From IMG/VR virus record IMGVR_UViG_3300021376_000051, positions 1,205-65,204 of that record: DNA of 64,000 nucleotides; one strand, 5' to 3'. Shown piece by piece: positions 2,070-46,386 of the stretch (its first letter is position 1; every line of letters begins with the position of its first letter). The stretch is from a virus. Lineage: Duplodnaviria > Caudoviricetes. The position numbers and the translations under genes were made by a program. The notes under the pieces are model-generated. The model ran no database searches, was not told the DNA's origin, and saw nothing but the letters and a program-made list of their open reading frames with translations.

Positions 2070-2480
2070 TTACGTCTTATGTTCTTCTGTTCTGCCATCT
2101 TTCAAATCCGTAATCTCAACGATCATTCTCTTTGGGATTTTATTTACCTGAGCTGTTTCATCAGGACCAATAGTATTTGTTACTGCAAAATGATCTTCAT
2201 CTTCATGTAATACAAAACCAACAGTAACCATGATTGGTAGTGGAGACTTGCTAAATGATTGAGCCTTGCTCTTATCTAGCCACTCCTCACCACCTATAGT
2301 TACAGCATCAATCCAGAAGATCATAACCAAATCTGGACTTTCTTGTGGATAAATTACATTCTTAGGCAAAGAAGTATTCAGATCCGAGTACTTCTGAAAC
2401 ATCAAATTCTGCGTCTGGTTTTGGGCAGTCTGGAAGGAAGATTTGGTATCTTTCTTCTGTTTCTTTCTTGAGTTTTTCAA
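2070..2480 (-). CDS. Conserved-looking phage hypothetical protein (true start probably nearer 2370)
   Basis: W.DA...W / TVGFVLHED / IPK.MI pattern typical of small phage proteins; the annotated 5' part overlaps the RNAP gene. Confidence 0.6.
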   Translation of the reverse strand: MKNSRKKQKKDTKSSFQTAQNQTQNLMFQKYSDLNTSLPKNVIYPQESPDLVMIFWIDAVTIGGEEWLDKSKAQSFSKSPLPIMVTVGFVLHEDEDHFAVTNTIGPDETAQVNKIPKRMIVEITDLKDGRTEEHKT

Positions 2481-4797
2481 GTTGATTCTCCTTATGAATC
2501 TTTACAAACTCTTCTCTTAGAATCTTATGCATTACATCAATGTCTGTAGCATGTGTTCCATATGAATCATGGATCATAGAAAATGTATTAATACCTACAT
2601 TCATCATCCTACTGATAGACATAAACATATGTGCTGCATCTATCGCATGGATAAAGTTTGGAGAAACAGCGAGATACTGTGCTTTACCGTCGAGATCTTC
2701 CGTAACAGTTGAGAATACCAACTGCTGCCTGTTAAATAGTTCGGCATAAGAAACTCTTTCTAGTACTTCGTTGTATACATGGTGTACTTCAAACCCACTA
2801 GGAGTTGTCCATACCAATGGTTTGTTCATTCCATCTAGAACTTCAGCGACTGAACGCAACCATTCTTTACCCTTGTTTGGTGATTCCATAGTTTCACCTA
2901 GACCAGCTTGGATAGCGCGGCTAAGTTCTACTACAGCACCTCCTCTGGATTCTTTTGGAACCCAATCCACATGACCTTCTTGCTTTACATATTTCTGCAT
3001 TCCATAGAATGTAAGACCATATGCATCGCACATTGTAGGTCGTTTTGTTACAGCCCGTGGTAGTTTATTATTCCAGTTTAAAAGGAATACTTGATACCAA
3101 TTATTTTCAGGATGCTCTAGCATATACTGAGTACTAGAGTCTGCAACATACTGGTATAGATCTTCTGGTTTTTCACTGGGCAAGAGATTTGTAAGCTTTG
3201 CTAGCTTCTTGTTTCTCATAATAGCTGACCAATGTTGACCACCATTATTAGCACCATCCATTTGAATAGGAAGCTGAGTCATGCCATCCTTCCGGGCAAT
3301 TTCAAAGATTGCTGCAAGGCGTTGGAATGACTTGTTCTTTTTCTTTAGTGGATCAATCCATTCTTTATTTGAGTATGGATCTTCTGCAATACGCAGTAGC
3401 ATATCAATGTTTTCGTCTACCCACTTAACCCTATCTTCAAATGGCTTTTTGTCTTGGTCAAATAGATTTGCTAGGTGAACCTTAAGCCAGAACAAACCAC
3501 GTTCAGTTTGTTTCTTTGGCATTGCAAACTGTACAAGACCACGATCAAAATCTACTCCTTGTGGAGATAGTAACTCACACACAGAGTATGCACGACCCCT
3601 GAAGTCCAGGGTATATGGCATATAGAAGAAGTCCCAGTCTAGCATTTTCTTTGCTAGCTGTAGCCGTACAATCATTCGACTGCGGGCTTGTTCTTCTTTG
3701 TACCATTCTCCCCAAGCTTCATTGGATTCTTGCATCCATTTGGCTTGCTCTTCTTTTGCACCATCTGTAGGATATGGCCTAGTAAAAGCATAATCCTTGA
3801 ATGTAAATGCTGGTAGATTTGCAAGCTTATGATCGTTTTCAAACATAGTCTTCATAACAGAATAGACTTGTTTGTTTACTGACCATTCAGTTTCACTAAG
3901 GGCATTAAGCCCACGGAGAACAAGTTCACTTGGTTTTGAGTCCCAATCCTTGGGATCTGCACCTACTGGATGATATCTTTTAATCATCTTCTTCCGAACC
4001 CAAGGTGACAAGAAGCCACCATCTTCTTCGGTAGTGTGCTTTACAGGAGGACAGATCATTGGTCTGTAAACTAGGCAGGCAGTCTCAAGCATTTCGTGAC
4101 GCTTGCTTAGTTCTTTTAGAATCCAAGGGGCAAAACAAACCAACAATGATTTCTTGTTCTTACCATTCCAGTGTACCCGTGAGACAAGGATATCACTAGA
4201 AAGTGCAATGCGAAGCATGTTATGACCAAAGTCTTCCTTCTCTTTTGAGTTTAACTTAGGAAGCTTACCAACTTTAGTTGTAAATGCCTTGCACCGCTTT
4301 ACAGTCCAGTTTTTAATAAACTTAGACTGCCTACGCCAATCTTCTGAGAACTTCTTTTTTGCTTGTTGATAAGCAATAATTGAAATAACATCATCAGAGA
4401 TTAACTTTGATACTTGTTGGGCAACCGGAGCATTGCTTGGAATACCCATAGTATCGTCAAAGTTTTGAATTGTATTCCTGGTTAGGAATAAACGCATAAC
4501 ATTTCTGATTGTAATGTCTGCCATCTTAGCAGCACCAACACATAGAAGAGGTGCTAGCCAATCAGGCGACTTACGGTTATTACAACATTCATCAATCCAC
4601 TTCTGATAATAAGGAGTAAGATGTATGACTGCACTTTCAAGCAGAAGTTGCTCAGGCTTTCCTTCATCAACCGCACGATTGTACTCCTTCCAGTATTTTT
4701 CAATACCATTATCTAGTAGATCTTCTTCAAATAGCTTTTGATTTATAAGTCTATTGTCTCTTTGTTCTTTAGATAGTTGTAACCAAGCTGTGCTCAC
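2362..4797 (-). CDS. T7-like single-subunit DNA-directed RNA polymerase (canonical)
   Basis: LDFRGRAY; motif A DGANNGGQH; motif B RAVTKRPTMCDAYG; PNFIHAIDAAH; motif C IHDSYG; C-terminal YFFA. Confidence 0.97.
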   Translation of the reverse strand: MSTAWLQLSKEQRDNRLINQKLFEEDLLDNGIEKYWKEYNRAVDEGKPEQLLLESAVIHLTPYYQKWIDECCNNRKSPDWLAPLLCVGAAKMADITIRNVMRLFLTRNTIQNFDDTMGIPSNAPVAQQVSKLISDDVISIIAYQQAKKKFSEDWRRQSKFIKNWTVKRCKAFTTKVGKLPKLNSKEKEDFGHNMLRIALSSDILVSRVHWNGKNKKSLLVCFAPWILKELSKRHEMLETACLVYRPMICPPVKHTTEEDGGFLSPWVRKKMIKRYHPVGADPKDWDSKPSELVLRGLNALSETEWSVNKQVYSVMKTMFENDHKLANLPAFTFKDYAFTRPYPTDGAKEEQAKWMQESNEAWGEWYKEEQARSRMIVRLQLAKKMLDWDFFYMPYTLDFRGRAYSVCELLSPQGVDFDRGLVQFAMPKKQTERGLFWLKVHLANLFDQDKKPFEDRVKWVDENIDMLLRIAEDPYSNKEWIDPLKKKNKSFQRLAAIFEIARKDGMTQLPIQMDGANNGGQHWSAIMRNKKLAKLTNLLPSEKPEDLYQYVADSSTQYMLEHPENNWYQVFLLNWNNKLPRAVTKRPTMCDAYGLTFYGMQKYVKQEGHVDWVPKESRGGAVVELSRAIQAGLGETMESPNKGKEWLRSVAEVLDGMNKPLVWTTPSGFEVHHVYNEVLERVSYAELFNRQQLVFSTVTEDLDGKAQYLAVSPNFIHAIDAAHMFMSISRMMNVGINTFSMIHDSYGTHATDIDVMHKILREEFVKIHKENQLEKLKKETEERYQIFLPDCPKPDAEFDVSEVLGSEYFFA

Positions 4798-4990: not shown

Positions 4991-5695
4991 TCAAGCCGTA
5001 TCAACAATTGAATTGCCCCACACTAGGTGCTTCCAAGATACACTCATGCTATCTGGAATTAGATCATACATAGCTTGTGCATATTCTTGGATTTCCTTTT
5101 GTGCATGAGGATCAGTACGCTGTAGGTAAAACCTTGCACAACTAGATAGATTACCAGTCCAGTACCACTCGGTGTAAACACCCTGAGGTAGCACAAACCG
5201 TGCCTGCTCTGGACAAATACCAGCCTTAATTAAATAATTGTATGCAGCAAGTGCATGTTCACAGGCAAGGTTGTAAACCTCATGTGCATTGTTAGATGTG
5301 TAATTATTAAGTTGAGCACCACTACCCTGCTTGACAGATCCTTCAGGTTTGGAACGCCACATAGGTTGCATAATTTCAGGCTCAGTTGATACATATCTAC
5401 GGCTTATTTCATTCTCAACAAAGCCAACTTTGTGCTTGAAGAACTGAGTACGAATTGGCATAGGTGCCTTGATGTGCCAAGTCAAACTAGTATGAGCAAA
5501 TGGAGTCCAGTGCTTGTGCTCTGCAAGATACTTAATTAGTTTCTTATCTTGTGCACTAAGCTTACCATCTACTAGTTGAGAACGCTTGCCAAAGGATACA
5601 CGGGCAGCATTAACAACAGATAGATCTGAACCCATGTAATCTACTAGTGTAATAAACCCACCGTTACCAACCCTAGTTGTTTTGTTTAATTCCAT
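4991..5695 (-). CDS. thyX: FAD-dependent thymidylate synthase
   Basis: VVNAARVSF, H.TPF, KHKVGFVENEISRRY (ThyX motif variant), PEQARFVLP, AQKEI; start placed at MELNK. Confidence 0.93.
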   Translation of the reverse strand: MELNKTTRVGNGGFITLVDYMGSDLSVVNAARVSFGKRSQLVDGKLSAQDKKLIKYLAEHKHWTPFAHTSLTWHIKAPMPIRTQFFKHKVGFVENEISRRYVSTEPEIMQPMWRSKPEGSVKQGSGAQLNNYTSNNAHEVYNLACEHALAAYNYLIKAGICPEQARFVLPQGVYTEWYWTGNLSSCARFYLQRTDPHAQKEIQEYAQAMYDLIPDSMSVSWKHLVWGNSIVDTA

Positions 5696-8703: not shown

Positions 8704-9010
8704 TTCGGAAGCATTCCTTAGACTTCCATTCCTGGGTCTTTAGTTCAATCCTAAAGCCTTCCTCGAATGGTCCCCAGATACTTGGGTCATTTTTGTTGTA
8801 TTCTTCTTCTTCATAGGATTGAAAGGCATCACAGAAAGCACAGCTTCCAAAGTGATACCAAACAATCCCAAACAAACCTTCAGAATTCTTCACAAGGTAC
8901 ATGGATGTACCTGAGAAGTCTCCTTCATGTTCAACCAAAACAACAGTGCAATTAACTTCCTTGCACATTCCATCAATCACTTGATATACACTTTTGTATT
9001 TAGTAGCCAT
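8627..9010 (-). CDS. Hypothetical protein with GSCxxCD motif
   Basis: GDFSG..Y...FGSCAFCDAF pattern. Confidence 0.65.
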   Translation of the reverse strand: MATKYKSVYQVIDGMCKEVNCTVVLVEHEGDFSGTSMYLVKNSEGLFGIVWYHFGSCAFCDAFQSYEEEEYNKNDPSIWGPFEEGFRIELKTQEWKSKECFRNEYHMLFSSNEEFFKNKCEEYFNGT

Positions 9011-9143
9011 ATAATCCTTAGGTTTACCTAGGTATTTATTATTACTATAGTATTAATATTACCTAGGTTTGAAGCCCTAGCTATATGCTAGGATATTGGG
9101 ATAAAAACAGGTTGCAAGGATTATTAGTCCTTGCAACCCTAGG

Positions 9144-9389
9144 TTAGAATGGTAGACTGGTTGCCAAAGGCTCAGGAGCCGGCGGCGGTTCGGACTTTGG
9201 CGAGGGTCGGCTAAGCTTACCCTTGAAGGCAGGAGCCTTCGGGTGAGCAGCCCCCGAGTTATCCCACATACTGATGGGATACTTAACGCCATTGATCGTA
9301 ACATAACCATTGAGTGCAGGGCTAGCCGGGTTTTCCGAATTAACCTTCCACACATCTATCCGAATATTAGGTGCGTTTGTTTCTTGCAT
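9144..9389 (-). CDS. Small putative ssDNA-binding protein (DUF736-like)
   Basis: NPASPALNGYVTINGVKYPISMW...KAPAFKG; Pro-rich linker; C-terminal LPF. Confidence 0.6.
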   Translation of the reverse strand: MQETNAPNIRIDVWKVNSENPASPALNGYVTINGVKYPISMWDNSGAAHPKAPAFKGKLSRPSPKSEPPPAPEPLATSLPF

Positions 9390-9476
9390 TTGTAAAACTA
9401 TTGTAAATATTATCTAGGACGTTTCCTAGGATTGATAAACCTAGACAAATTATCAACCCCGATACAAGGTAAAACA

Positions 9477-9545
9477 TTATTCCTCTGATTCGTAGGAAGA
9501 CATTAGATCTTCCCATTCAGCTACTAGCTTCCAGTCTTCTTCCAT
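9477..9545 (-). CDS. 22-aa acidic micro-ORF
   Basis: AGGGAG RBS followed by MEEDWKLVAEWEDLMSSYESEE*. Confidence 0.4.
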   Translation of the reverse strand: MEEDWKLVAEWEDLMSSYESEE

Positions 9546-9569
9546 GAAACTCCCTGGTTAGGATTACGT

Positions 9570-10200
9570 TAACTTCTTAAAAGACATTCCACACATCTCT
9601 GCGAAGAATGCCATATTGAGGATTCCTAGTTCGACCTCAATCTTTATCAGGGGATGCCTGATAACTTTTGGCTAACTAATATGCCAAGGCTAAGGAAAAG
9701 ACAACCTAAGGGTTAGCCTAGGTTGTCCCATGTAGGTCTTTACATTATCTCTTACCAGAGTAGATATAGACCTTAGACTATCTACTCTTGGTTATCCAAT
9801 AACCGATGAAACGGTACATATTAGGGGTGTTTCATGTCCCTAACTGACTTCCGGCTTGAATTGAGTCCCCCATGTAGATCCGTCAACCTACACGGGACGC
9901 ACTATGCTTATGCTTCTATTTAACCTCGCATAGTCGAGGTATCCCTAATGCCGTGTTACCACCCTAGGATAAACGGGTGACACTTGCCTGCCTAAAGGCC
10001 GGTATAATAACCACAATGGTAGGCTTACCCATTGCTACACCCTTGCGGGGCGTTTATTACCTAGGTTTGCGGCCTAGGTAATATCCTATTAGGTTCTTCC
10101 CGTTGCAACGGTTCACCTCCTTAAGTTTGAAAGATATCCCACAGGTTTCCCCGTGGGATACCAGCTAGACTTGTTTCTAGCACGGGTGGAATGTACCACC
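9570..10200 (-). ncRNA. Large structured RNA with hairpins and tandem H-type pseudoknots
   Basis: Near-continuous stem-loops; GAAA/GCAA tetraloops and G-U pairs point to the minus strand; four hairpin loops have exact downstream complements. Confidence 0.7.
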
Positions 10201-10204
10201 TATT

Positions 10205-10321
10205 TGGCGTGGCCTGGCAGGATTCCAGCGGGTACCTGCATCATCCGATTTACGTGACCTAGCTTGGCCCTACGGGTCCTTTGATCAGATCGGTGCTTTG
10301 AATCGTTAAGCTACAGGCCAC
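10205..10321 (-). ncRNA. Aberrant tRNA-like element (8-bp acceptor stem + GCCA, expanded anticodon and T loops)
   Basis: GTGGCCTG/CAGGCCAC acceptor; GCTT/AAGC D-stem; CCGAT/ATCGG anticodon stem; GCAGG/CCTGC T-stem; encoded CCA. Confidence 0.75.
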
Positions 10322-10329
10322 AAGTGGGG

Positions 10330-10358
10330 ATTTTAACCGTGTTTTAAGCCACAGTCAA
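10330..10358 (-). promoter_or_regulatory. Sigma70-type promoter
   Basis: TTGACT-17 bp-TAAAAT; the predicted start (~10323) lies at the 5' end of the tRNA-like element. Confidence 0.75.
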
Positions 10359-10452
10359 CCACTAGTTTGTTGTCCACAATTTATTAATCCCCTATGGACG
10401 TTTGCTTGGGATACCCTAGTTGGCTTAATCCAACTACCCGGGCAGGGTTGGC

Positions 10453-10539
10453 ACCTAGAATGCCATTAGAAGCCACGGAACTGGTGACCCCTACCATGTG
10501 GGGGTTGAGACAGTGCATGACCTCTAATGGAAGCCTAGG
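10453..10539 (-). ncRNA. Long rod-like RNA hairpin
   Basis: CCATTAGAGGTCATG pairs with CGTGGCTTCTAATGG over 15 bp including G-U pairs (minus strand only), closed by CCTAGG/TCTAGG. Confidence 0.5.
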
Positions 10540-10548
10540 GGCTTGGGA

Positions 10549-10590
10549 TAAAAGCAGGGGCACCCAAGCAAGATTGCCTGGATGCCCCTG
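10549..10590 (-). terminator. Probable intrinsic terminator
   Basis: CAGGGGCATCC...GGGTGCCCCTG followed by CTTTTAT, just after the 10609 stop codon. Confidence 0.55.
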
Positions 10591-10608
10591 TTTCGTCTGT
10601 TTCCAGCA

Positions 10609-10812
10609 TTAAAGCTGGGTTTCAATCAGTCCACGGGCTTCAGCCTCGGCCAAGATCCCCTGAATCTTCGATTCGGAGGTGACCTTACCGCGCTGGACCT
10701 GGATGACCAGATTCAGCAGCTCCTTGTCGCCCAGCCGGGTGTAATCCACGGTGAGCTGCGGACGGGGGAGGGCCACAAGGGCCTTCGACGTAAAGGTGAT
10801 GTTGATGGGCAT
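10609..10812 (-). CDS. Small hypothetical early protein
   Basis: AAAGGA RBS before MPINITF; GC-rich codon usage. Confidence 0.6.
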   Translation of the reverse strand: MPINITFTSKALVALPRPQLTVDYTRLGDKELLNLVIQVQRGKVTSESKIQGILAEAEARGLIETQL

Positions 10813-11073
10813 CACCAATCCTTTCTGGGAACCACTGATGATAGTGAACATTCCCTTTGGGTCCAACATCAGCAGCCACTCGCGCGAGTGATCTTACTGA
10901 TGTAAAATCGCAAGAGTGGCGCGGAGCGAAGCGGAGTCGCCACAACGGGAGGGCAACCAAAGGCAAGCCCTGCGCTGAACGGAGCGTGTGGCTCCGTGAA
11001 GTCCGCTCTAGGGGCACTTATCCCTAGGGGATAATATTATTAGTTAATTGAACCTATGAGTCAGGTTATTGGC

Positions 11074-12963
11074 TTAGCCCATGAAGTTGCGGGAAGCCGT
11101 GAAACGATGCTCGTTGATGGGCTTCCATCCCTCCTTCCAGATCTTGTGGTTGAGGTGGACCTGGTACTGAGCCAGGTTGTTTGCAAGGCGGGGTTCGGTC
11201 ATGTACATCTTCTTGTACAGAACCTTCCACGCCATCTTGACGAAGCGCACACCCGCACAGCAAGTGCCGTGCGAGTCATGGATGGGCGAGTAGGGCAACC
11301 CCTTGATTGCCATGAGCCGAGCGATGCCCGACACATGGGCAGCATCTTCCGAATGGATCACCAACGGCGGGGCTGCCGATGCCTGCTTGATCAACTTACG
11401 CTTCATCAGCGTAACCTTGATCTTGCGGTCCCCAACCGTGAACTCCACACGGTTAGGCTTCTCGTCCTTGTCCCAGTCATGCTGGAACACGAACGACTTG
11501 GCCCCGTCATGGTGATGCCAAGTGAAGATCTGTCCTTTATCGTGTGCCTTGCTGTAGGCATCACGGACAAGGCGGATGAACTCCCGAAGCTTCGGGAACA
11601 TCCGCAACAAGGACTCATGGTACGCCTTGGAAACTTCCAAGGCATCGTCCCATGCGGTATCCAGACGATCCACCCAAACATCAACCCAGTCTGGGTTGAA
11701 TGCCTCTGGGTCCTTGGTCAACAATGCCTTGGCCTTCTTCGGGCAATAGTTATTGCCCTCTGAGATGCGGTCCCAGTCATCCCCGTCCTTGAGGATGAGG
11801 CCCTTGGCCAAGCCGCCCGGTCCTGCGCCATAACCAAGGCGCATGACAAAGTACTTGGCCTCTTCAGGGTGGAAGAACTCCAACAAGGTTCCGCCATAGC
11901 CAGCCTGTGCTGACTTGGCAACCTCCTTGTACAATGACTTCTTCCTCTTGGTGCCACCAAGGTTGGTGTACCAAGCGAGAGTTGAGTCACCGCACAACCC
12001 GGCAATCCTCTGGTATCCGTCTGAAGTACAGTCCTGCTGGAAGATGTAAGAGGTTGCCCCCGTGTCTTCCAGCTCGGCCATTGCCACGGCCAACTCAAAC
12101 CGGGAAATGATTTTGGTTACCTTGCAGCCGAACCAGTCGGCTGCACTCTTGAGATGGGCAATAGCCCCATCTCGCGGGTGGAAAGGCTGTTCCTGGGTAG
12201 GAACAAACCCTTCCTTCTCTGCCTCCGCATGGGTCATCGCCATGCGGACGCGGAAGATCAGTTCACGGTAGTTACGGGGAGTAACCCCATCCTCCTTGGC
12301 AACCGCCCAGCAAGCTGCCAAGTTTGCCGCCTTGTCTTTACCAAGGCTGTAAGCCTTGGCGTAGCCCATCAGGCTACGGACGAGCACACCGCCCATGTGG
12401 GCAAGCGTGTCGGGGAAGTAGAACCTCCTCCGCTTGAAGCAGTAGAACCTAAACACATCGGTTCCCTGCTTTTCGGCCTGTGCCACGGCCTTGAGAGCCG
12501 TGGCAAACTTGAGGCCCCCGCCCTCGGCACCGGGCATCTTCTGCCCAATGCTGTACAGGCGAGAGCTACCGAACGCCTTCAGGAATCGGAGAGCTTCCGG
12601 CCTGAAGGCGTACTGAACTCCCTGAAGGAAGTTCAGGGTGTCCGCATCTGCTGCGGACAACCCGGGCATCTCCTCCCAAACAGGAGGTTCAGCCCGGACA
12701 AGGAGCGCAGTCTTGGGCACAACCCAGATGCGCTCCGACCGATGGCCGTCATCCGTGATCACTTGCTCACGGCTGATGGCGTACTCAGGCCGCAGCAGCA
12801 GCTGCTCCACGGCCTTCTTGGCGGCAGCACCCAGCTCTGCCTCGTCGCCAAGGAACGTGCATGCGTCCTTGGCGACGGCCCAGCACCGCTGGATGGTGAG
12901 CGGGTATGTTACCCGCTGAACCAGCGCGCTGAGCATTGCACTGACAATCTTCTTATTGGTCAT
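11074..12963 (-). CDS. Second, highly divergent T7-superfamily single-subunit RNA polymerase
   Basis: Motif A QQDCTSDGYQR; motif B AKYFVMRLGYG; FTW; PPLVIHSEDAAH; motif C SPIHDSHGT; all in the correct order; GAGG RBS. Confidence 0.85.
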   Translation of the reverse strand: MTNKKIVSAMLSALVQRVTYPLTIQRCWAVAKDACTFLGDEAELGAAAKKAVEQLLLRPEYAISREQVITDDGHRSERIWVVPKTALLVRAEPPVWEEMPGLSAADADTLNFLQGVQYAFRPEALRFLKAFGSSRLYSIGQKMPGAEGGGLKFATALKAVAQAEKQGTDVFRFYCFKRRRFYFPDTLAHMGGVLVRSLMGYAKAYSLGKDKAANLAACWAVAKEDGVTPRNYRELIFRVRMAMTHAEAEKEGFVPTQEQPFHPRDGAIAHLKSAADWFGCKVTKIISRFELAVAMAELEDTGATSYIFQQDCTSDGYQRIAGLCGDSTLAWYTNLGGTKRKKSLYKEVAKSAQAGYGGTLLEFFHPEEAKYFVMRLGYGAGPGGLAKGLILKDGDDWDRISEGNNYCPKKAKALLTKDPEAFNPDWVDVWVDRLDTAWDDALEVSKAYHESLLRMFPKLREFIRLVRDAYSKAHDKGQIFTWHHHDGAKSFVFQHDWDKDEKPNRVEFTVGDRKIKVTLMKRKLIKQASAAPPLVIHSEDAAHVSGIARLMAIKGLPYSPIHDSHGTCCAGVRFVKMAWKVLYKKMYMTEPRLANNLAQYQVHLNHKIWKEGWKPINEHRFTASRNFMG

Positions 12964-14013: not shown

Positions 14014-14097
14014 GCCAAAAACCCAGGGCTACGGGGGAAAATTACCAACGATGATAATCTATCCACCCCGACGAATTTTTTTGACCCCTAAGTCGAT

Positions 14098-17000
14098 TTA
14101 CAGTAAAGCTTCTGGTGCCTGTATTGGCTGGTTAGCCTTTTGTAAATCTACGGATGTGGAAGTTTGTTGTGGTTGTGGTTGCTGTGGTTGTGGCTGTGGC
14201 AACTGTGGTTGCTGTGGTTGTGGCAATTGTGGTTGCTTAGGTTGTGGCAATTGTGGTTGCTGTAGTCTTTCCGAACTACGCTTCAAGTATTCTTCTAGAT
14301 GTCTTTTTGGGATATTGTTATATTGTGTTTCTTTTTGCAATACTGTTGGATACTCTGGGAACATTTCTCTAATTAGTGCATTTGTTGTATCTTCTACTGG
14401 TGTAGACATAGAATCTATAATTGCTGATATGTCTCCCTTGGCTCCTCTATACGAGCCTCCTGAGGTTGGCGAGCTAGTTCCCCATGCTTGTGCTACGGCT
14501 ACTCTAATTGGTAGTGAGTAACCGTTGGCAATTAGCCAAGGCCCCAATGCTTTATAAGCAGCCCAGGTTTTGGCATCCCAAGTTTCTTGTGGTGATGCAA
14601 ATGCTTCAACCATTTTGTATATATCTCTAAATTGTTGCATTAATCCAGCTTCAGCAACAGAGCTAAGCATACCACCCTGTGATCTACCAGTTGCTGCTGC
14701 TAAACTAGCATTAGCAATTAACCCTAGTATGTTATTACTAAATGCTGGATTACGCATGATGTATCTACCAATTTCGCTGATATTATCTTTTCTATTAAGT
14801 TTTTCTAGAATATCTTCATAACTTAATGTGCCTCTAGCTAAAGCAAGGACAAGATTATAAGTAAAGTCTAGTAAACTTGAAGTTGCAAGCATCATACCCA
14901 TTTTTGGAAAACTAGCTGTACTACCCCTTCTAATTATTTGCTGAGCAACAAACAAAGAAGTATATGATTTATAGAATGTTAGCAGATCGGTAGCTAGGTT
15001 ATCACTTCGTGGGGCATCTAGTGCTTTACGGACAACCATACCTCTTGTTGTGTTAAATTCTTGGAATTTAGCCATAGCTGTTTTAGCTAGACTTAGTTCA
15101 GCTAGTAATTCATTCCTAGTTAAGAATGGTCTTGGTACTGGTCCGGTTGATCTTGGTGAGGTTGAGTCTTTTAGTTCTAGTTCGACATCCATCATATCTT
15201 GGAATAGAATAACACCTCTAAATGTATTCTTTTCTGTTCTAATATATCGCAATGCCTCTAGTCTCTTGCCCTCTAGTAAACCAGATTGAATTATATATAC
15301 AGCAACTTCTTGGTCAATGAAACCTAACTTGTTTTGCCGTAGTAATTCCTTAATTTGGCCAACTGTGGTTGGTTTAATTGCAGCAGCCCTATAGGCATCT
15401 CGGAATCTATTGAGATGTCCCATTCTTTCTAGTTTAACTATTAATCTATTACCAGCAGCATCCATAGCAACTCTTACAGATTTCATTGCACTGGAGTTGG
15501 AGCGGGATCTATTTAGTTTCCATCTATCCCAGAATCCTAATTTTTCAATTAGATCTGAAGATGGATCCATAGATAAGAGATTGCTTGGTAACATTGGTGA
15601 AGTAGTTTCTTCAACAAATGATAAAGTATTTTGAGCAAGTCTTCTAATCTTTCTTTGTCTGATTGGGAAGAATTGTCTTTTTGTTCTTCCACTTGCGTCT
15701 GTTACTTTTCCTGGGAAACCAGAAGTATCTACTATAGCATTTGCCGCATTAACTATACCATCTTCTACCATATCTCTTAGGAATCTAAAGGAAGATATAA
15801 CACCAACAAACGGGTTGCTTTCTTGGAACATTTGCGACATTGTACTCATTACACCCTCTACCATATAAGTAGCTGTGTTGATATTCATACCGAATCGCAT
15901 CAATACTAATGTTTTAGCTCGGTTGTTCCAATCTGCTAGGCTTTGGCCCATGTCTGTGGTATCTCGTACTAGATTACCCTTTGTTTCTAGTAGCGCAAGT
16001 CTAAGTCTATTGATACCTTGACGCATTAAAGCGTTGTTATCAATCTTTAGGTTTCTTTCTCCACGTTGATCAAATAGGGTAATGTTTCTGCTATTGGAAT
16101 TAACTGTTTGATCATTCTCAGCTTCAAACATATCTAAGATCTGAGATATATTGAAGTATGCATTTGGAATACCTGATAGCTGCTGAACCATTTTACGTTC
16201 AATAGCATCATATGCAATCTTACCAGTACCCTTAGCCAATGTTGATAGATTTGTTTCAAACAACTTAAGCATGTTTGGGTTAGTTGATAAGAATACATCT
16301 CTGCTGGTTAGGAATACAGAATCCTGTTTAAATAGCGCAGAAGACTTTGTAACTCTATTTAGAAACTCAATGGTTAGTACATCAGATGGACCCAAGATAC
16401 CAGTCATTTCTCCAGTTAAACCATGTGGCATGTTTCTATCAGAAATACTAAAGTGTTTTCTTACGTCATCTCTTTGGAACTTAGTATTCCATCTTTCGGC
16501 TGTTTTTTCATCTGTAGGAATTAAGAATGCTTTCTTAAAAGCTAGTACAACCATATCCATATTTTGGGTTGTCATCCCACCAAATGTTTTTTCTAAAGTA
16601 ACATCACCATCTCTAGTTTGCCATAGTATTTTATGAATTATTTCCTGCACATCTTTATGGATTCTAACTAAAGATTGTGTAGAAGCATAATCGGCTACTG
16701 TTGTAATACCTGTTCTACCGATTGATTTTTTTGCAGCTGTTCTTACAGCCCAATTTATAATTGCTTCTCTACCACCATTAGCAATAGTATCCTTACCGGA
16801 AATAATATCAGCCACAACCTTGCTTAAAGATGCTTCATCTGCTACTAGCATTTCTTCTGGATTTAGTGGAATTATTCCAGAAGTATATCCTAGTAATGGA
16901 GAGAATGTTGCATACTTTCCATTAGCATCTAACATTGCTATATTCTTACTAACTAGTTCCTTTTTAATTATATCAAACGCATCTCTAGCTAGGTTACGAT

Positions 17001-20000
17001 CCTGTAATAATGAAGTATCTCTTAGTCTAACTGGGAACACATCATTTTTACTGGTTTTTTCTAGCATGCCTACTTGGGTTTGTAGCTCTACGGTTTTATC
17101 TGTTAATAGTCTAAAAGCACCAGTAAGACTTTCAACATGCTTCTGTTCTTTTACTCCGGTTAGGATTGGTCTAATACCTAATAAATTCCTTACTACATCC
17201 TGAATAATAGCGTGTTGCATATTAAGGTTATTGGGATATTCTGAACTTAGGTCTGCCGACTTAATCATTACATTATAAACATAAGGATCAATCAGTAGTT
17301 TATCGTTTTGAATACCACTAACATCAGACTGTAAAGAACCTTTTGTTGTTACAGAAGCCTGGTCAATTAGTTCTGTTAGAATAGCTAATGGTGCAAATGG
17401 GCTATTATAGGTTAATGAAGTTGCATTCATAAACCCTTGTAATAGGTTGTTTTGCAGTATGGTTGAGATCATTAACTCGGAACCAACAAAGGGTATACTT
17501 CTAATAATACCAGCAGCTGTTCCTTCATCTGCTCTTTCTCCTCGTCTATCAATACCACGTTGAATAAGTCCAACTAAGAATGCTCTTCTAAATCCATTAT
17601 CAAGAAGATCTCGTTCTGTTAGTCTTGAACCCTTTGTTGTTGAGAAATCATCTAAATCAGCTAAAGTTCTTGCAACAAACCCAACACTAATATTCATAAA
17701 TGTATTAATGTCTTTTTCTCTAATCTTTTGTTTAAGATCATTTATCTTTGAGTCTATAGCTGCAAGTGTTGCCATATTTGGAATTGGCTTGCTACTTTCT
17801 ATCTTATAGTTTTGTTCTTCTACTCTTAGCTCTGAAATCAAGATATTAAGATCAGCCATTTCTGTTGGTGTTAATTGTCTATTGTTTTCCGTAGCAACGA
17901 CACGTTTAAATGCATTGAGTTGAGCATCAGGATTTCCAACATCAGCTCTAGTAGACATCCCTGTTCCAATAACAGCCATTACAACATCTTCAGCTTCTTT
18001 CATAAAGCTAGAGTATTCTGGGTTATCATTTAGTTTATTAAATGTAATAAGGACTCGTTGAGCCATTTTCTTAATAGCATAGAAAGCATTTTCCCAAAGT
18101 CTATAAGCCCTACCAACTGGTGCATACTTGTCTCTTAGTTTTGTAATAGCTTCCTTCGATCCTAGTACATTTCTTAGTAAGAAGAATGCACCCATATGGG
18201 CAAAGAACTCATCAGTATTGCTAAGTGCATACTCTACTTCTTGTTCTAAGTTTTCGTATGGTTTGCCATTATTCATGGCTAATAGCATTTCTCTAATTAC
18301 TGGTTTTGATCTTGTTGTATCAAATAGTCCAGTAACTTTACGCCACTCGGGTGAGTTTGTTTTTACATACTTTAGTCTAGCAATGTGAACTAATTCTTCT
18401 GCAAATCTAAATAGGATTTCATTTTCTGCTGTAACCTTCATTGCTGTTATGTTTTGACCTATTACATATCTACCATTTCTCTTAGCAGCAAACATAATAC
18501 CGTCTTTACCTTCTCCAGCAAATGATTCTATTGTTAGTTCTTCTACAATATCTGGGTTATGCTTTGCCAGGTTACCAATAAGCATAAGCTTCATATCCCG
18601 TGCTCTTGCTGATATTACACCACCAGAAACAAGACCATCAAGATAGTTTACAAACTTTTCTGCTGATTCTCGGTGTGCTGGGTTGCTAAATGACATTATA
18701 AAGTCATCTGGATCAGTATATACAGCCGGAGAAGATGCATCAGAGTAGATCTCGTCAGCAATTTCTGGTTCTAGTTGTGGTCTGGTAAAGTCTTCAACAG
18801 CCGCTCTGATATTAGACACAACTGCTGGTGTTAGTTCTTTACCGCTTGCTGTGGCCATAGCTCTAACAAACACAGCATCGCTTGTTAGGTTTCTTGGTTC
18901 AGCAACAACTCGTTCCATTGCTGCTCTAGTTACATAGTATTCTTTTGCATTATCATGTGGTTCGTTATCCATGACGTACATTAATGCAGATACAACATCA
19001 TCAATTTGTTGCTTTTGGCTGGTCTTTAAACCTTCTGCATTAAAGTATCTATATACAGATCGCTCTGCTGCATCGTTTCCTGCTACTTTATACATCATAG
19101 CAGCAATCTTAATTAAAGCATTTGGAGACTTTACAGACTTTGGTAACTGTGTTTTGTTGTTATTTGCCCATACAATAAAATCACCTATTTGAGATGCTTT
19201 ATCTTCAAATCCAAGTTGTTGAGCTTTTACAAGAACTTCAGTTAATACAGTTAAGAATGGAGCATCTGCAACAGAGATGTTAATCTTTTGCTGTTTAACT
19301 GTTTTAAAGGCTCTACCCGCTACTATAGTTGTATCACTATTTGGTATTGTTATTGTAATTGTAGCTGGATTATCTCCAGAAGACCGCAAGTAATACCCCA
19401 AATCAAGAACATCTTTGGACTTTCCATCAATGTTTACCCTTCTGTAATCTTTAAGCATAGCTGGTTTTACAGTACCTGGGTCTGTTTCATACAAGAATGC
19501 AATACTTTCAGATAATTCATCTTCCATATCACGCATTCTTTCAAACATTTGGGCTTCTTTTTCTTGAATTACTGAGTCAATCTCAGTTTTAAACCCATAG
19601 ATTTCTTTGTTTGTTTGAATAGCAAGTTCAATTTCTGAGAATAACTTATAGTTTTCTAGGTTGTTTAGCATCTGAATCAAACCCTGTGGGGTATTAAGCC
19701 ATAGTGTTGATGGGTTATCAACCTGTGATGTTATCTGGGCATACGGATCTGTTGGACCCTGTACGGTAAGCTTTTCTAGTTGCTCGTCTTCTCTAAATAC
19801 TTTATTGTTTTTATCTCTTAGTGTTACTCTATTTTCTGAGTTGACAGCAAAGTAGAAATTCTTTAGCAATTCTTCTGCAATACTTTGCTTTTCAAGTAAT
19901 GTAGCATTCCAGATTTTCTTATATAAAGCCGAGTCTGTTCTTGGATCAAGACTTTCAAGAATAACAAACCCGTTAGAATCATATTTTACATTTGGATCTG

Positions 20001-23000
20001 TTTCATATGGCGTTCCGACAATCATCTTAGTTGCTACTTGCTTAGCAGTTTCGGATGCACCTATTACTTGGTATAGTTGCATTACTTCTCTACCAAAGGC
20101 AACTACAGGAATCTGGGTTGTAGATGGGATTCCGGCTCTACCCTGTCTTCCACGGACAATTACTCCAGGATCTAGGGTAATTCCAAACTCCATGCTCATT
20201 AATCTTTCGATCTTACCCCTAGTACCTAGATATGTTAGTACTTGTAACCAACCAGGTTCTTCACCGAATGTTGCTTTGATATCGTTAATGGTGTCTAAAC
20301 TTAGTGTTCTTTCCTCTAATGTTGCCATTAGATCGAGTGGAGAGAATCGCTTTAATCCACTAAGAGTAGCAGAGCTAATTCCAGCTGTTCTTAAGAACCC
20401 ATCAATATATCTAATTCTAGCTTCTCTAACTAGTTCGTCTTTTTCTAGAACTTCATCAATTGATGTTTTAGACTGAGATGCCTTTTGTAGTGTGTCAATA
20501 GCTGGGTTTAGTGCTTTATTTCTTAGTTGCATAACTGCAAAGATTCTACCCCAATCCTTTGCTTCTAATGACTCATCTAAACCATGTAACTTAGCAAATT
20601 CTGTTAAGACATTCTGTAGTCTAATAGCATTTTGCTCTACTCTTTCTTTTTGGCCAAGAGCAATAGCTCCAATTACATCATCAGAACTTTGTGGAATCAT
20701 TGGCATATTTTGAGGTTCATAAGGTGACTTATATCCTCTCAATGACTCTGGAACAAATCCGTTTGGATTAGAACTTAAGGCACCCTCAACCTCTGCTAGT
20801 TGTTGCAAAGCTTGGTTTTGTTTAATTCTGGCTGCGTGTTGTGCTGCTGCTAGTGCATAAATACCACGTTGTGTAAAGTCAATATCTGCATATGCTGGTC
20901 TTAAAGCACCGTATCCATCGACAGTAGGATCTAGAATAATCTCTTCTCTGCTACTTACTGCATCAGAAGCAAGAGTTCTAAATCTAAGTCTAGCATATGC
21001 TGTTCCTGCTGCTTTTTTATTTCTATCATTTCTTTCTTTCGCGGTTATTTCAATTCCACCAACAGTATACTTACGAATCTTTGGTGCTTTTTCAAGGTAC
21101 TTTGATACTTCTGCTGCTTCTATTTCTTTTGCGGATCTTGCTTGTAGATCTAAGAAATACTTTGTTCTATTTTCATTTATTTCTGGTTTATATCCAGTAA
21201 CAATAGTTGGTCTATAGAACTTGGCTAGGTTTAATAGTATTTGTCTAGCAAAGATCTGTTCAAAGTCTGCTCTTGCTGCTTGTTTTTCTTCAATCTTCCA
21301 CATACCATAAGGATTGTAATCTCCACCTGGCTCCATAACCCTTGGTTGGGCATACTTTGAGCTTTCTGGACCAAGGCCATACCAACTAACCATGTGGTTT
21401 CTACCGCTTGCGGTTTCTACTCCATATCTAAAGTACACTTCTCTATTCAAGTATCTAGTATAGTCTTCTTTATCAATGTGTACACCCATTACAAATCTAT
21501 GAATGTCTGCTACATCTTCATCTAATACAAATGGAGTAGTAGCTCGTCTATTTAAAGCATAAATCATTAGATGATTTTGTGCTGCTTCTTCGCCGCCAGC
21601 AAGTGCTACATTCATTTCATAGATAAACGTGGCATATTCTTCTGGACTCATGCTATCAACTGCTTTGCCTTCCCAAATAGCAGCAGCTTTATCAAGTCTT
21701 GCTTTCCACTTTGTTAGCAATTCTGACTCAATTTCTTGTTCAATTTCTTCAAGTTTTCTATTACTTGGATTTACAATTCCACGAACTCTTGCTACAGACT
21801 TAGCCGTTTCTTTTGCAGAAACAGAAATAAACTCTTGCATACTACCCAATCGTTCCATTCTTGATCGCGCTTCACCAAGAGCTTTGGAGCCATTCAAAGT
21901 ACTGCTATAGGTGCTTGAGTTTAGTCTTTGTGCGTTGCTTAGTAATATATTTCGTAAGTCTTGGATATTTTCTCTACTAAACCCAATAACTTCATCAATT
22001 AATCTAGAACTTCCAATTAACTGCGATCTTACAGACATACGAGCTAGGAATTCAATTTCATCTTCAGTTAGGTCAAGATTTGTTTCTTTTACCTTTGTCT
22101 GTAAACCCTGTAGAATACCGGGATAGCCTGCTTGATAGAATGCCGGTGTTACAGCACCCTTTAGGAATTCTTTTAGTTGCGCTCTATTCTTTTCATCGCT
22201 TGGATCGCCCATCTTAGCTCTTAATGCTTTAGCTAACTCAGCATCCGCTGGTGTAATATTAAATTTAGATGGATTAGTAGCCATCTCATTTAGCATATTT
22301 GTACCAAAGTATGGGCTATTTTTATCACTGGTTCCAAGTAAGATGTCTATAAACATAAATCTTGGGTCACCTAAATCTTTACCAGCAACAACAACCTTTT
22401 TACCAGCAAATGTAGCTGGAGCACCTGTTTCATCTGTTGCTTTTAGAACCTGTAACAGATCATCCATAACTTTAAAATTGCCGTCATTAAAGGCAATCAA
22501 CATTGCTAGGATGTTATGCTTACCGTTATACTTGTAGTCTGATTTATTTGATGTATTCCAGGCAGCATCCCCATTGGTTCTAAGGATTTCCATACCACGA
22601 TCAAGTACATTTTCAAGCTCCTTAACACCATCTGGTGTCATTAAGCCATAACTAATCATATGTGCTAACTGGTCTACAGCACCACCCATAAGTGCAGCAG
22701 CGGTTGGTCCACCAGCACTTATAAAGTCTTGCATATAAAATACTGGTTGGGTATCTTTAAAGAATCTTGGTGGAGCTTTCATTCCCATGTAAGTACAGTC
22801 ATGGTTAAATGACATAAGTAATCTGGGAATCTCATATAAATGTTCTTCTACTAGCAACCTTCTTTCTGCTAGGTTTGGAATAGCAGCAAATGGACTACGA
22901 ACAGTAACATCAGGACTTATGTCTAGAACCTGTTGTCTAGCAAAGAAACTAATTGGATCTCCTGGTTTTTGAGTTAGTGGAGTCTCTAGCCAAGAGTATA

Positions 23001-45063: not shown

Positions 45064-46386
45064 TCAGACTGTGTAGCTGCCCTGAATAGCACCGCAAAGC
45101 TCAGGACGGAGTACGCCAGCACCACCCATGATGCTAGCTACAGTGAAGAATGTACCTCTACGGACATCCTTAACTGTCTCAACCTTCATGCCCTGTAGTC
45201 TAAGTGAGCATACAGCACTGCGCTGCCAAATCAAAGCCTTAACTGGGGTAACAAAATCGCTGGTGTTAATTACACCGTTATTACCAACTACGGCATCGTC
45301 ATTACGAGTACCATCAAACCAGTTAAAGTTATACTTGGCATCACCAAGGTCACCAATAACACCAACATTGCCAGCATTAGCAAGTTTACCAACTGAGCTA
45401 AATGCTGTTCTAACGGTGTTTGCTTGACCCTGCTCAACCTTAGCGTGGTCAAGTTCACCAAGGTGGTTGCTCTTGATGATCTTAACACCCATGTACTCTA
45501 GTGATTCGGTAATACCGAACATGCCATTGCTTAGGCCAGTACCTAAGCCGCCTGCTTCAGCAACGCCGCCGAAGAATGGACGACCAGCACCACCCTGTAG
45601 GCCTGTAGAATCACGGGCAATACCAAGAGCACGAATGTCATGGAAAGCCTGTGGAGTAACAGCGCAATAGACTTCACCCATAGTAGCGTCAATTTCAGCA
45701 AGACGTACCATGTACCGCTCTAGATACTCAAGAAGCTTTAGAGCAGCATCGGTACGCTCAGTAGCGCCTGCACCACGAAGACCGAGTACGTTAAAAGCTG
45801 CGTCTGGTGGAAGAACAGCAGCGGCACCACCAACATTCATACCAGCGTATGATGCTGTGAATGGAGCACGGGCGGCTGTAAATGCACCCTGAGCAATCAT
45901 GCAAGCGATCTGCTTATCACGGATGTAGCTAAGCTTTAGACCAGCCTGACGAGCAAGTTCTGATCTATAGTCCCACTGAGTAAGCATAAGATGAATGTCA
46001 TCAAGTTCAAAGAATGAAGCCATTGGTCTTTGATCAAGTGAGATATCAAACCAACCTGGGTTGTCAATATCCTTTGAACCAATAAGCTCTTCACCAGCAT
46101 TCCATACACCGATGTGACCAACGGTGCCGGTAATTGGGAAACGCTTAGTAGTACCTGATTCAATGGTTTCGGTCATTACCATTGGTTCAAATACATTGTA
46201 TTGATCATAAGCATTTAGAACTTCACCACTCCAGATTGGTAACCAGTAATCTGGATTAGCAGAAACTGCTGGAGTACCGGAAGAAGTCGAAGCTGCAGTA
46301 CCACCCTGTGGCCAATTGCCAACGTTTACACCTACTGGGAAAATGGGATTAGTATCACCATTATTAACAACTGAATAATCTGCCAT
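45064..46386 (-). CDS. Major capsid protein (T7 gp10-like)
   Basis: L.IWSGEVL.AY; TIESG...FP..G; DYRSE...Q.G..L; G.GVLRPE. Confidence 0.95.
   Translation of the reverse strand: MADYSVVNNGDTNPIFPVGVNVGNWPQGGTAASTSSGTPAVSANPDYWLPIWSGEVLNAYDQYNVFEPMVMTETIESGTTKRFPITGTVGHIGVWNAGEELIGSKDIDNPGWFDISLDQRPMASFFELDDIHLMLTQWDYRSELARQAGLKLSYIRDKQIACMIAQGAFTAARAPFTASYAGMNVGGAAAVLPPDAAFNVLGLRGAGATERTDAALKLLEYLERYMVRLAEIDATMGEVYCAVTPQAFHDIRALGIARDSTGLQGGAGRPFFGGVAEAGGLGTGLSNGMFGITESLEYMGVKIIKSNHLGELDHAKVEQGQANTVRTAFSSVGKLANAGNVGVIGDLGDAKYNFNWFDGTRNDDAVVGNNGVINTSDFVTPVKALIWQRSAVCSLRLQGMKVETVKDVRRGTFFTVASIMGGAGVLRPELCGAIQGSYTV

What the first reader, a model, noticed from the sequence alone, without database searches (positions are those of the whole stretch)
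9570..10060. Array of H-type pseudoknots in a large ORF-free phage RNA
Hairpin loops have exact complements just downstream on the minus strand: ACTATG(C) in the ACCTCG/CGAGGT hairpin (9928-9934) with 9901-9907; ATGAAAC (9829-9835) in the TTAGGG/CCCTAA stem with 9806-9812; AGGTCT (9768-9773) in the AGAGTAGATA stem with 9734-9739; AGGCTAA (9713-9719) with 9687-9693. Weaker cases lie near 9880, 9965 and 10022, and further hairpins at 9615-9641, 9644-9664 and 9668-9686. I cannot match this to a known family. Hypotheses: a new large ornate ncRNA (compare GOLLD/ROOL), nuclease-resistant decoys such as ToxI-like pseudoknot antitoxin mimics, or a template/ligand for RNAP2.
Basis: partly seen in the sequence, partly recalled or inferred. 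Interest (0 to 1): 0.88.

Follow-up and report, generated by a model that had tools for sequence, protein, structure and literature searches.

The report
Pistol ribozyme heading a pseudoknotted RNA
The first "pseudoknot" is a known self-cutting RNA (a pistol ribozyme), and the next two belong to a conserved, previously undescribed folded RNA of about 170 bases that lies just past the predicted cut site in a small group of lake phages.

Summary
All four exact loop-to-downstream complements are at the stated coordinates on the minus strand. Pseudoknot 1 is the defining pseudoknot of a Pistol self-cleaving ribozyme (Rfam RF02679, 9862-9939 minus, 43.8 bits against a cut-off of 34.5). Rfam also finds Pistol at the matching place in 14 of 19 related loci scanned.

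Pseudoknots 2 and 3 belong to a conserved RNA of about 170 nt (9866-9696). It starts at the predicted cut and ends in a hairpin plus U-run of the type this phage uses after genes. Four lineages keep it with heavy compensatory change: 92.9% of cells paired against 74.1% in shuffles, and 31 of 49 pairs changed on both sides. It matches no Rfam family.

Pseudoknot 4 is not supported. Its 3' strand is missing in the closest relative.

The 870-nt ORF-free stretch is a mosaic of separately exchanged modules bounded by terminator-like hairpins, not one large ornate RNA.

Best reading: a ribozyme-processed early phage RNA, either a free small RNA or a structured leader. Its function is unknown. Self-cleavage and transcript ends were not shown.

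The parts
9862..9939 (-). Pistol self-cleaving ribozyme. It also has a 10-bp P3 hairpin and a two-base junction G9867/A9866 that carries the predicted scissile bond.
   Evidence: Rfam RF02679 scores 43.8 bits against a gathering score of 34.5, over model positions 1-68 of 68. Pistol is found at the matching place in 9 of 14 relatives and in 5 of 5 further loci.
9846..9867 (-). Hairpin H1 of the downstream RNA. It re-uses the bases that form the 3' strand of Pistol P2, so P2 (before the cut) and H1 (after the cut) exclude each other.
   Evidence: Energy-minimum fold. Helix 1 has 6 pairs, 2 of them changed on both sides, but the window-type rows are gapped there, so this helix rests partly on reading by eye.
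9806..9844 (-). Hairpin H2 (9844-9820). Its loop at 9835-9829 pairs with 9812-9806; this is pseudoknot 2.
   Evidence: (p 0.006). In the H2 stem 5 of 7 pairs changed on both sides. PK2 has 6 invariant pairs plus one pair with three Watson-Crick types. RNAalifold predicts H2 independently.
9790..9804 (-). Small hairpin between pseudoknots 2 and 3. It is present only in the window-type lineage.
   Evidence: Fold. The L007-type and L065-type rows have no equivalent hairpin.
9734..9788 (-). Hairpin H3 (9788-9757, with a 12-nt loop). Loop bases 9773-9768 pair with 9739-9734; this is pseudoknot 3.
   Evidence: In the H3 stem 10 of 12 pairs changed on both sides, and all 5 PK3 pairs vary. RNAalifold predicts H3. 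Sister clades have a different hairpin-plus-complement at the same place before their terminator hairpin.
9696..9728 (-). Terminator-type hairpin plus a run of four U. This is the conserved 3' end of the module.
   Evidence: 9728-9699, -16.1 kcal/mol. helix 7: 10 of 12 pairs changed on both sides. Similarity to L002 stops right after the U-run. Hairpins of the same style follow genes at 6257-6228 and 45047-45016.
9687..9693 (-). 3' strand of the proposed pseudoknot 4. Not conserved, and probably not a pseudoknot.
   Evidence: It is an exact 7-nt complement (p 0.006). It is absent in L002 and present in L264.
9579..9686 (-). Lineage-specific hairpins at 9686-9668, 9664-9644, 9641-9615 and 9612-9583, the last followed by a U-run at 9582-9579. 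They lie between the module and the next small ORF.
   Evidence: Fold. Compensatory double changes at 9664/9644 and 9637/9619 in a related contig. The segment is kept in L264 and replaced in L002.
9940..10128 (-). Variable structured spacer upstream of the Pistol.
   Evidence: Joints at 9938/10035 and 9938/10129 in DNA runs. It is 90% alike in L002 and different in L264. The small hairpin at 10111-10100 keeps pairing through changes at four positions in the RNA-library contig.

Best explanation
The region is a chain of separate RNA modules in the early region of a T7-like lake phage, read on the minus strand. The core module (9939-9696) is a Pistol self-cleaving ribozyme fused to a conserved folded RNA of about 170 nt.

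Shown here:
- The Pistol match.
- The RNA's helices H2 and H3, the terminal hairpin, and pseudoknots 2 and 3, all supported by compensatory change in four lineages.
- The constant pairing of ribozyme and RNA.
- The module's sharp recombination borders.

Inferred:
- The early transcript cuts itself between G9867 and A9866. This frees the downstream RNA with a 5'-hydroxyl end.
- The weak P2 helix of the ribozyme then lets go, and its bases refold into hairpin H1.
- The RNA ends, at least in part of the transcripts, at the hairpin plus U-run at 9728-9696.
- The result is a compact, doubly pseudoknotted RNA with defined ends. It most likely acts as a protein-binding small RNA of the early, host-takeover phase.
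- Transcripts that read through the hairpin carry the same fold as the leader of the next small gene.
For: - Pistol scores 43.8 bits against a cut-off of 34.5. Pistol abuts every full-length family member: 11 of 11 rows of alignment A4.
- The distance from the cut site to the end of the U-run is 170 nt in the window type and 170 nt in the L007 type, although only the Pistol region aligns by blastn.
- Structure counts on 11 sequences: 92.9% of cells paired against 74.1 +/- 1.2 in shuffles, 31 of 49 pairs changed on both sides (0 of 500 shuffles reach this), and 27-42% paired when partners are slid by 1-3 columns.
- RNAalifold on its own predicts 32 pairs, 24 of them with compensatory change.
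- The pseudoknot columns were not part of the covariance model. PK2 shows U-A, A-U and G-C at its variable pair, and all five PK3 pairs vary.
- Among the window, L002 and L264, the substitutions inside 9866-9696 (9819, 9746, 9743) fall in linkers.
- Borders: joints at 9938 and 9695/9696.
- Strand: G-U pairs are frequent. The minus strand folds to -82.2 kcal/mol (z -4.9) against -68.3 (z -2.7) for the plus strand.
- A 2455-nt contig from an RNA library, at depth 99, from an L002-like strain covers 9696-10203.
- Published passages say the cleavage-site dinucleotide is only modestly conserved, whereas the two-base junction length is strictly conserved (PMC4604425, passages read).
Against: - Self-cleavage was not tested. 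In the window type only 2 of the 4 P2 model pairs are canonical, and the site reads G-A instead of the usual G-U. The same G-A is seen in L002 and L264.
- No transcript ends were seen. All runs laid were contigs, which cannot show ends, strand or level, and DNA can be present in an RNA library.
- The U-run has only four U.
- In L002, L004 and L003 the next ORF starts 14-16 nt after the RNA's end. Read-through must therefore occur, and the fold could simply be a leader.
- Only four or five independent lineages exist. PK2 rests on a single covarying pair.
- Alignment A4 was fitted to the nested helices by the model, so counts for those helices lean towards the structure.
- The L065-type rows break 2 of the 5 PK3 pairs in that alignment. 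They pair only in a register that I chose by eye.
- No evidence of any kind bears on a binding partner.
Confidence: 0.55

Rival explanations
1. It is only an intercistronic processing and stability element. The Pistol cut separates the upstream and downstream early messages, as host RNase III sites do in phage T7 (textbook knowledge, recalled). The folded 170 nt would then be the protected 5' leader of the next message, with no role of its own in trans.
For: - In L002, L004 and L003 a conserved small acidic ORF starts 14-16 nt after the hairpin, preceded by a ribosome-binding site.
- Many other phage Pistols found by the pattern scan lie just upstream of a ribosome-binding site and a start codon.
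- In relative L022, two hammerhead ribozymes flank a 128-aa ORF.
Against: - A leader does not need a constant 170-nt length, two covarying pseudoknots and a terminator-type end.
- The downstream gene differs among lineages. The window and L264 have about 150 nt of extra hairpins first; L007 has another ORF first; L065 and L098 have unrelated ORFs.
- The module recombines as a unit without its downstream gene.
Confidence: 0.27
2. It is a riboswitch-like attenuator. The pseudoknotted fold would sense a ligand or protein and set how often transcription passes the hairpin at 9728-9696 into the downstream genes.
For: - A structured domain is followed directly by a terminator-type hairpin and then a gene.
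- The L007 and L065 types allow an alternative helix around H2 that competes with H1. One compensatory double change between L065 and L039 supports it (read by eye).
Against: - No part of the conserved fold overlaps the terminator stem, so there is no visible switch.
- The alternative helix is not seen in the window type.
- No Rfam riboswitch matches.
Confidence: 0.08
3. The whole 870-nt ORF-free stretch is one large ornate RNA comparable to GOLLD or ROOL, or an array of ToxI-like decoy repeats.
For: The whole stretch folds with z = -13, and several of its hairpins keep pairing through compensatory change.
Against: - No Rfam match other than Pistol at E up to 10.
- No tandem repeats.
- There are internal terminator-type hairpins.
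- Segments are swapped independently among close relatives.
- Only 9939-9696 is shared beyond the closest relatives.
Confidence: 0.04
4. Apart from the Pistol ribozyme, the loop-to-downstream complements are chance matches among ordinary hairpins.
For: Single-site shuffle p values are only 0.005-0.15. One of the four complements, PK4, is indeed not conserved.
Against: The complement is kept at the same place with different sequences in separate lineages for PK2 and PK3. The same holds for the hairpin before the terminator in two sister clades.
Confidence: 0.04

Closest known systems
Pistol self-cleaving ribozyme (Rfam RF02679; Weinberg et al. 2015, recalled; Harris et al. 2015, PMC4604425, passages read)
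   Same: The part 9939-9862 matches the family model over its full length, with P1, the loop pseudoknot, P3 and the two-base junction. Like many Pistols, it lies among phage genes.
   Different: The site reads G-A rather than G-U, and P2 is very short. In this clade the ribozyme is always followed by one particular conserved folded RNA. The passages and abstracts I read do not describe this.
Theta (minimal HDV-like) ribozymes next to tRNAs in gut phages (PMC10879173; title and start of the abstract seen in the listing only)
   Same: A small self-cleaving ribozyme in a phage sits directly beside a structured RNA, which it is thought to process.
   Different: The ribozyme class is different, the cargo is a tRNA, and the ribozyme lies on the other side of the cargo (recalled). 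Here the cargo is not a tRNA or tmRNA (ARAGORN finds none).
Structured motifs with 3' terminators (DUF3800-I, drum, FuFi-1, skipping-rope; PMC5737381, passages read)
   Same: These are highly conserved, intricate folds that end in an intrinsic terminator. They were judged unlikely to be riboswitches and are thought to act as small RNAs.
   Different: There is no match to any of them in Rfam. Those motifs have no ribozyme at their 5' end.
RNase III processing sites in the early region of phage T7 (textbook knowledge, recalled)
   Same: They occupy the same genomic setting, between early genes of a T7-like phage, and have the same likely effect: cutting a polycistronic early transcript.
   Different: The cut here would be made by the RNA itself, not by a host enzyme, and it is coupled to a conserved 170-nt fold.

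Membership tests
Pistol ribozyme (RF02679) | Covariance-model score at or above Rfam's gathering score | tested here: met
   43.8 bits against 34.5, over model positions 1-68 of 68.
Pistol ribozyme (RF02679) | P1 hairpin whose loop forms a 6-bp pseudoknot with the internal loop between P2 and P3 | tested here: met
   9934-9929 is exactly complementary to 9906-9901. Relatives carry three different complementary versions.
Pistol ribozyme (RF02679) | P3 hairpin, and a junction of exactly two bases between P3 and P2 that carries the scissile bond | tested here: met
   The cmscan alignment shows a 10-bp P3 and a two-base junction. The junction reads G-A. The family paper says its identity varies but its length is strict.
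Pistol ribozyme (RF02679) | P2 helix | tested here: inconclusive
   Only 2 of the 4 model pairs are canonical in the window copy. Several relatives that score 58-65 bits are equally short here, read by eye.
Pistol ribozyme (RF02679) | Mg-dependent self-cleavage | not testable with these tools
   This needs a bench assay.
GOLLD / ROOL large RNAs | Match to the family models. That Rfam holds models of both is recalled, not checked. | tested here: not met
   No such match at gathering score over the window, nor at E up to 10 over 9200-10700.
ToxI-type antitoxin RNA | Tandem direct repeats of a short pseudoknot unit next to its toxin gene | tested here: not met
   Tandem Repeats Finder gives 0 rows for 9400-10700 at minimum score 30. 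I did not look for a toxin gene specifically.
tmRNA (an RNA with a string of H-type pseudoknots) | tRNA-like domain and tag reading frame | tested here: not met
   ARAGORN finds 0 genes in 9000-11000. No tmRNA family appears.

The most novel reading that the evidence does not exclude
The Pistol-plus-RNA unit is a self-contained, exchangeable gene cassette for a trans-acting pseudoknotted small RNA. The ribozyme makes its 5' end, and the clade's standard hairpin makes its 3' end. The RNA serves the phage early in infection by binding a host or phage protein, for instance as a decoy against a defence or a nuclease. Sister clades carry other RNA bodies behind their Pistols with the same design of hairpin, loop pseudoknot and terminator. 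If so, 'ribozyme-headed small-RNA cassettes' would be a general phage device and would give Pistol ribozymes a biological job.
Probability: 0.3. Interest if true: 0.75.

Novelty: new variant of a known kind. Interest (0 to 1): 0.55.

Why it matters
What most bacterial and phage self-cleaving ribozymes do is still an open question. A 2019 review says so for the newer classes (PMC6765202, passages read).

This is a case where a Pistol ribozyme is always joined to one conserved, doubly pseudoknotted RNA. The RNA has a fixed length and a terminator-type end, and the unit moves as a block between phage genomes. That turns a vague association ("near phage genes") into a concrete, testable proposal: the ribozyme matures the 5' end of a specific RNA.

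The attached RNA is also a candidate new structured RNA family from uncultured freshwater phages.

Tried and rejected
Searches and checks that led nowhere:
- blastn of 9300-10500 against 50,697 phage records found no match.
- The search for related loci with the 629-aa polymerase found no relative. The 811-aa polymerase then gave 34 loci.
- tblastn of the 811-aa polymerase found only hits under 30% identity among cultured phages, so no named close relative.
- A pattern scan of viral contigs for the conserved spacer plus hairpin end gave 117 stretches. My script found 125 matches in all loci held, and 17 had a stable hairpin. 12 of those 17 are loci of contigs already in the family, and the other 5 show no family features. 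No new members resulted.
- The metagenome scan gave 30 stretches. 6 were family members (L258, L263, L264, L265, L279, L282), and 24 were chance hits in unrelated sequence.
- Models R1 and R2, run over the window and 142 loci, found no member among the roughly 90 other phage Pistol loci. The weak rows (10-33 bits) are mostly just terminator hairpins.
- ARAGORN found nothing. There were no tandem repeats.
- The simple terminator scan did not list the hairpins at 9728-9699 or 10162-10133. My own scan did.
- A promoter-like element conserved after the RNA in relatives is absent from the window.
- The MAFFT alignment A1 put stems out of register and misplaced L004, so I did not count pairs on it. 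L004 and L003 were left out of A4 because the model aligned only their 3' half.

Sequencing runs:
- All four runs were contigs. They show that the stretch is present in one RNA library, but give no strand, ends or level. Parts without cover mean nothing.

Tools and files that were closed:
The supplements of the 2015 and 2017 ribozyme and motif papers could list flanking motifs that I could not see.

Not in print, as far as my searches reach: full-text searches, and passages read, show no description of an RNA attached to Pistol. This is a limited search.

Full report
SETTING. The window is bases 1205-65204 of a 65.2-kb IMG/VR virus record.

All long ORFs lie on the minus strand. They include:
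- a T7-type primase/helicase, DNA polymerase, ribonucleotide reductase, head-tail adaptor and tail proteins;
- an 811-aa T7-like RNA polymerase at 2362-4797;
- a divergent 629-aa polymerase at 11074-12963;
- ThyX and a DUF932 protein.

The finding lies between the two polymerase genes, among small ORFs. By analogy with T7-like phages this is the early region; that placement is an inference. DNA runs that hold the stretch are lake or freshwater metagenomes (only four runs were laid).

THE OBSERVATION. On the minus strand all four exact complements are at the stated coordinates.
- No ORF of 40 aa or more lies between 9517 and 10383 on either strand.
- The 59-aa frame at 10384-10563 overlaps a strong terminator-like hairpin at 10590-10555, so the non-coding stretch may be longer.
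- The 867 nt fold at -308 kcal/mol against -253 +/- 4.2 for shuffles (z -13, 20 shuffles).
- Shuffling each loop and linker gives p = 0.006 (PK2), 0.036 (PK3) and 0.006 (PK4). This is suggestive, not decisive.

PSEUDOKNOT 1 IS A PISTOL RIBOZYME.
- Rfam's only non-tRNA match in the window is Pistol at 9862-9939 (minus), 43.8 bits against a gathering score of 34.5, over the full model length.
- A permissive scan of 9200-10700 listed 7 matches up to E = 10. All except Pistol had E of 0.2 or more and scored far below their cut-offs.
- The junction with the scissile bond has the required two bases but reads G-A (G9867, A9866). L002 and L264 share this.
- The family paper states that this dinucleotide is only modestly conserved while the junction length is strict (PMC4604425, passages).
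- Only 2 of the 4 P2 model pairs are canonical.

RELATIVES.
- The 811-aa polymerase retrieved 34 loci.
- Rfam found Pistol at the matching upstream position in 7 of 7 loci and in 2 of 7 more distant ones.
- Of the other five distant loci, L022 has two type II hammerheads instead and four have no ribozyme.
- By blastn only L002 aligns widely with the window (94% over 10203-9696). The others share only about 45 nt of the Pistol.

THE RNA BEHIND THE CUT.
- Reading the folds of the relatives showed the same layout after the cleavage site: a small hairpin; a hairpin whose loop pairs downstream (PK2); a long hairpin with a 12-nt loop that pairs downstream (PK3); a short conserved spacer; and a stable hairpin with a U-run.
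- From 6 bases before the cut to the end of the U-run the length is 176 nt in the window type, 176 in L007 and L008, 173-177 in L029, L011 and L051, and 229 in L004.
- A metagenome scan added L264 (window type) and L258.
- A covariance model of the nested helices only (R1) found the window copy at 62.5 bits and a fourth lineage, L065, at 44.8 bits. L039, L098 and L118 share the L065-type sequence.
- Rfam confirms a Pistol abutting the RNA in L065, L098, L264, L258 and L051 (5 of 5 loci).
- A broader model (R2), run over the window and 142 loci, found 15 strong rows (127-190 bits). Several are two loci of one contig. It found weaker rows for L004 (with L038 and L135 of the same type), L003 and the truncated L031, and nothing among the other Pistol loci.

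COVARIATION. On the model-made alignment of 11 sequences (A4), with the two pseudoknots added by me:
- 92.9% of 519 cells pair, against 74.1 +/- 1.2 in shuffles.
- 31 of 49 pairs change on both sides (0 of 500 shuffles reach this).
- Sliding the partners by 1-3 columns drops pairing to 27-42%.
- Pairs changed on both sides, by helix: H2 5 of 7; H3 10 of 12; terminal hairpin 10 of 12.
- PK2: 6 invariant pairs, plus one pair seen as U-A 5, A-U 3, G-C 2 and other 1.
- PK3: all five pairs vary, and two rows are unpaired at two columns.
- Those two rows are the L065 type. They pair in a register shifted by one (read by eye).
- RNAalifold independently predicts H2, H3 and the terminal hairpin: 32 pairs, 24 with compensatory change.

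Caveats on these counts: A4 was fitted to the nested helices, the lineages number only four or five, and shuffles ignore relatedness.

Two further points support the fold.
- Within the window type, the substitutions inside 9866-9696 (9819, 9746, 9743) fall in linkers.
- Two sister clades (L016-L018, and L086, L090, L094, L127) carry unrelated RNAs behind their Pistols. These again have a hairpin whose loop complements a stretch just before the terminal hairpin, with different sequences within each clade (p 0.006-0.045).

PSEUDOKNOT 4.
- Its hairpin is the terminal hairpin of the module.
- The 3' partner at 9693-9687 is present in L264 but absent in L002, which diverges directly after the U-run.
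- Three of the seven 'loop' bases join a longer stem in the energy minimum.
- The linker would be too short to span that stem (my estimate).
- I read this complement as chance or a lineage quirk.

THE 3' END.
- Hairpins of the same style, two of them with nearly the same apical sequence, follow the DUF932 gene (6257-6228, six U), a gene at 45064-46386 (45047-45016), and lie upstream at 10162-10133.
- The terminal hairpin of the module is therefore this phage's ordinary terminator type. It has only four U.
- In L002, L004 and L003 a conserved small acidic ORF starts 14-16 nt after it. Termination there must therefore be partial.

MOSAIC, NOT ONE LARGE RNA.
- A three-way alignment and contigs of related strains show pieces exchanged at 9695/9696, 9938/9939, 10035, 10129, 10203 and 10327.
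- The Pistol-plus-RNA unit is the best-kept piece.
- The hairpins at 9664-9644 and 9641-9615 each keep pairing through one double change in one strain, but they are replaced in L002.
- There are no tandem repeats and no tRNA or tmRNA.

TRANSCRIPTION.
- One metatranscriptome run holds a 2455-nt contig, at depth 99, of an L002-like strain that covers 9696-10203 and 10327-10433.
- Contigs cannot show strand or ends, and DNA can be present in such libraries, so this is only a hint.
- Evidence for the minus strand: gene orientation, G-U pairs in the alignment, and a better fold (-82.2 kcal/mol, z -4.9, against -68.3, z -2.7).

READING.
- Shown: a Pistol ribozyme joined to a conserved, doubly pseudoknotted RNA of about 170 nt with a terminator-type end, moving as one unit.
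- Inferred: self-cleavage at 9867/9866 frees the RNA with a 5'-hydroxyl. The short P2 helix lets go and its bases form H1. Part of the transcripts end at 9696.
- Whether the product acts in trans (my preference, about 0.55 together with the processing claim) or is only a structured leader or attenuator (about 0.35 together) cannot be settled here.

KNOWN AND NEW.
- The ribozyme is a new member of a known family.
- The attached RNA matches nothing in Rfam 15.
- I found no description of it in three full-text searches and the passages read. Supplements were closed.
- The nearest concepts are ribozymes that process neighbouring tRNAs in gut phages, and the 'motifs with 3' terminators' of the 2017 survey.

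Noticed in passing
window 10133-10358 (minus): A sigma-70-like promoter match (10358-10330, 10 of 12 positions) is followed by a stem-closed domain (about 10326-10204) that relatives replace with 87 unrelated letters. The domain ends in a terminator hairpin at 10162-10133. In three lake DNA runs that hairpin alone has summed contig depth of 17-545, against about 1-45 beside it, with differing flanks on both sides. It may be a second small RNA unit, and the hairpin seems to be shared by many contigs.
   Followed up: partly
window 11074-12963 (minus): The divergent 629-aa T7-like RNA polymerase gene has G+C of 0.54-0.64. Just downstream the figure is 0.38-0.50. No relative was found by the search for related loci. 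It may have been acquired from elsewhere.
   Followed up: no
L022 2028-2093 and 2507-2575: L022 is a relative with 66% polymerase identity that lacks a Pistol. Two type II hammerhead ribozymes flank a 128-aa ORF (2117-2503) upstream of the polymerase gene. The ribozyme class differs but the early-region habit is the same.
   Followed up: partly
L008 about 540-640; also L051, L258, L007, L016-L018, and L025 about 5281-5330: A conserved element of about 45 nt follows the module's terminator in several relatives and recurs in a distant relative. It consists of a hairpin, an A/U-rich run resembling the Pistol linker, and then a G-run. It is absent from the window. It could be a phage-polymerase promoter or another RNA.
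   Followed up: partly
window 9477-9545 (minus): A 22-aa acidic ORF with a ribosome-binding site is conserved as a 21-39-aa ORF downstream of the RNA in L264, L002, L004, L003 and L007. It falls below the ORF-list threshold used.
   Followed up: partly
L016-L018; L086, L090, L094, L127: Sister clades carry different RNAs behind their Pistols, with the same design of hairpin, loop complement and terminator. The complementary sequences differ within each clade. R1 did not detect those it was run on, and R2 detected none of them.
   Followed up: partly
L051 12543-12692 (minus); L065 about 14053-14120: The L051 Pistol carries an insertion of about 100 nt in P3, and Rfam matches only part of it. 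L065 has a second Pistol-like sequence, about 1.4 kb downstream of the first, that does not reach the gathering score.
   Followed up: no
window 14098-26616 (minus): A 4172-aa ORF has no PHROGs match at E up to 1e-5. It sits after the tail genes, so it could be a giant virion or ejection protein.
   Followed up: no
window 10100-10111 (minus): A 3-bp hairpin just after a Shine-Dalgarno-like run keeps pairing in the RNA-library contig through changes at 10111, 10110, 10101 and 10100. The Shine-Dalgarno-like run itself changes at 10116, 10118 and 10120, so it is probably not a ribosome-binding site.
   Followed up: partly
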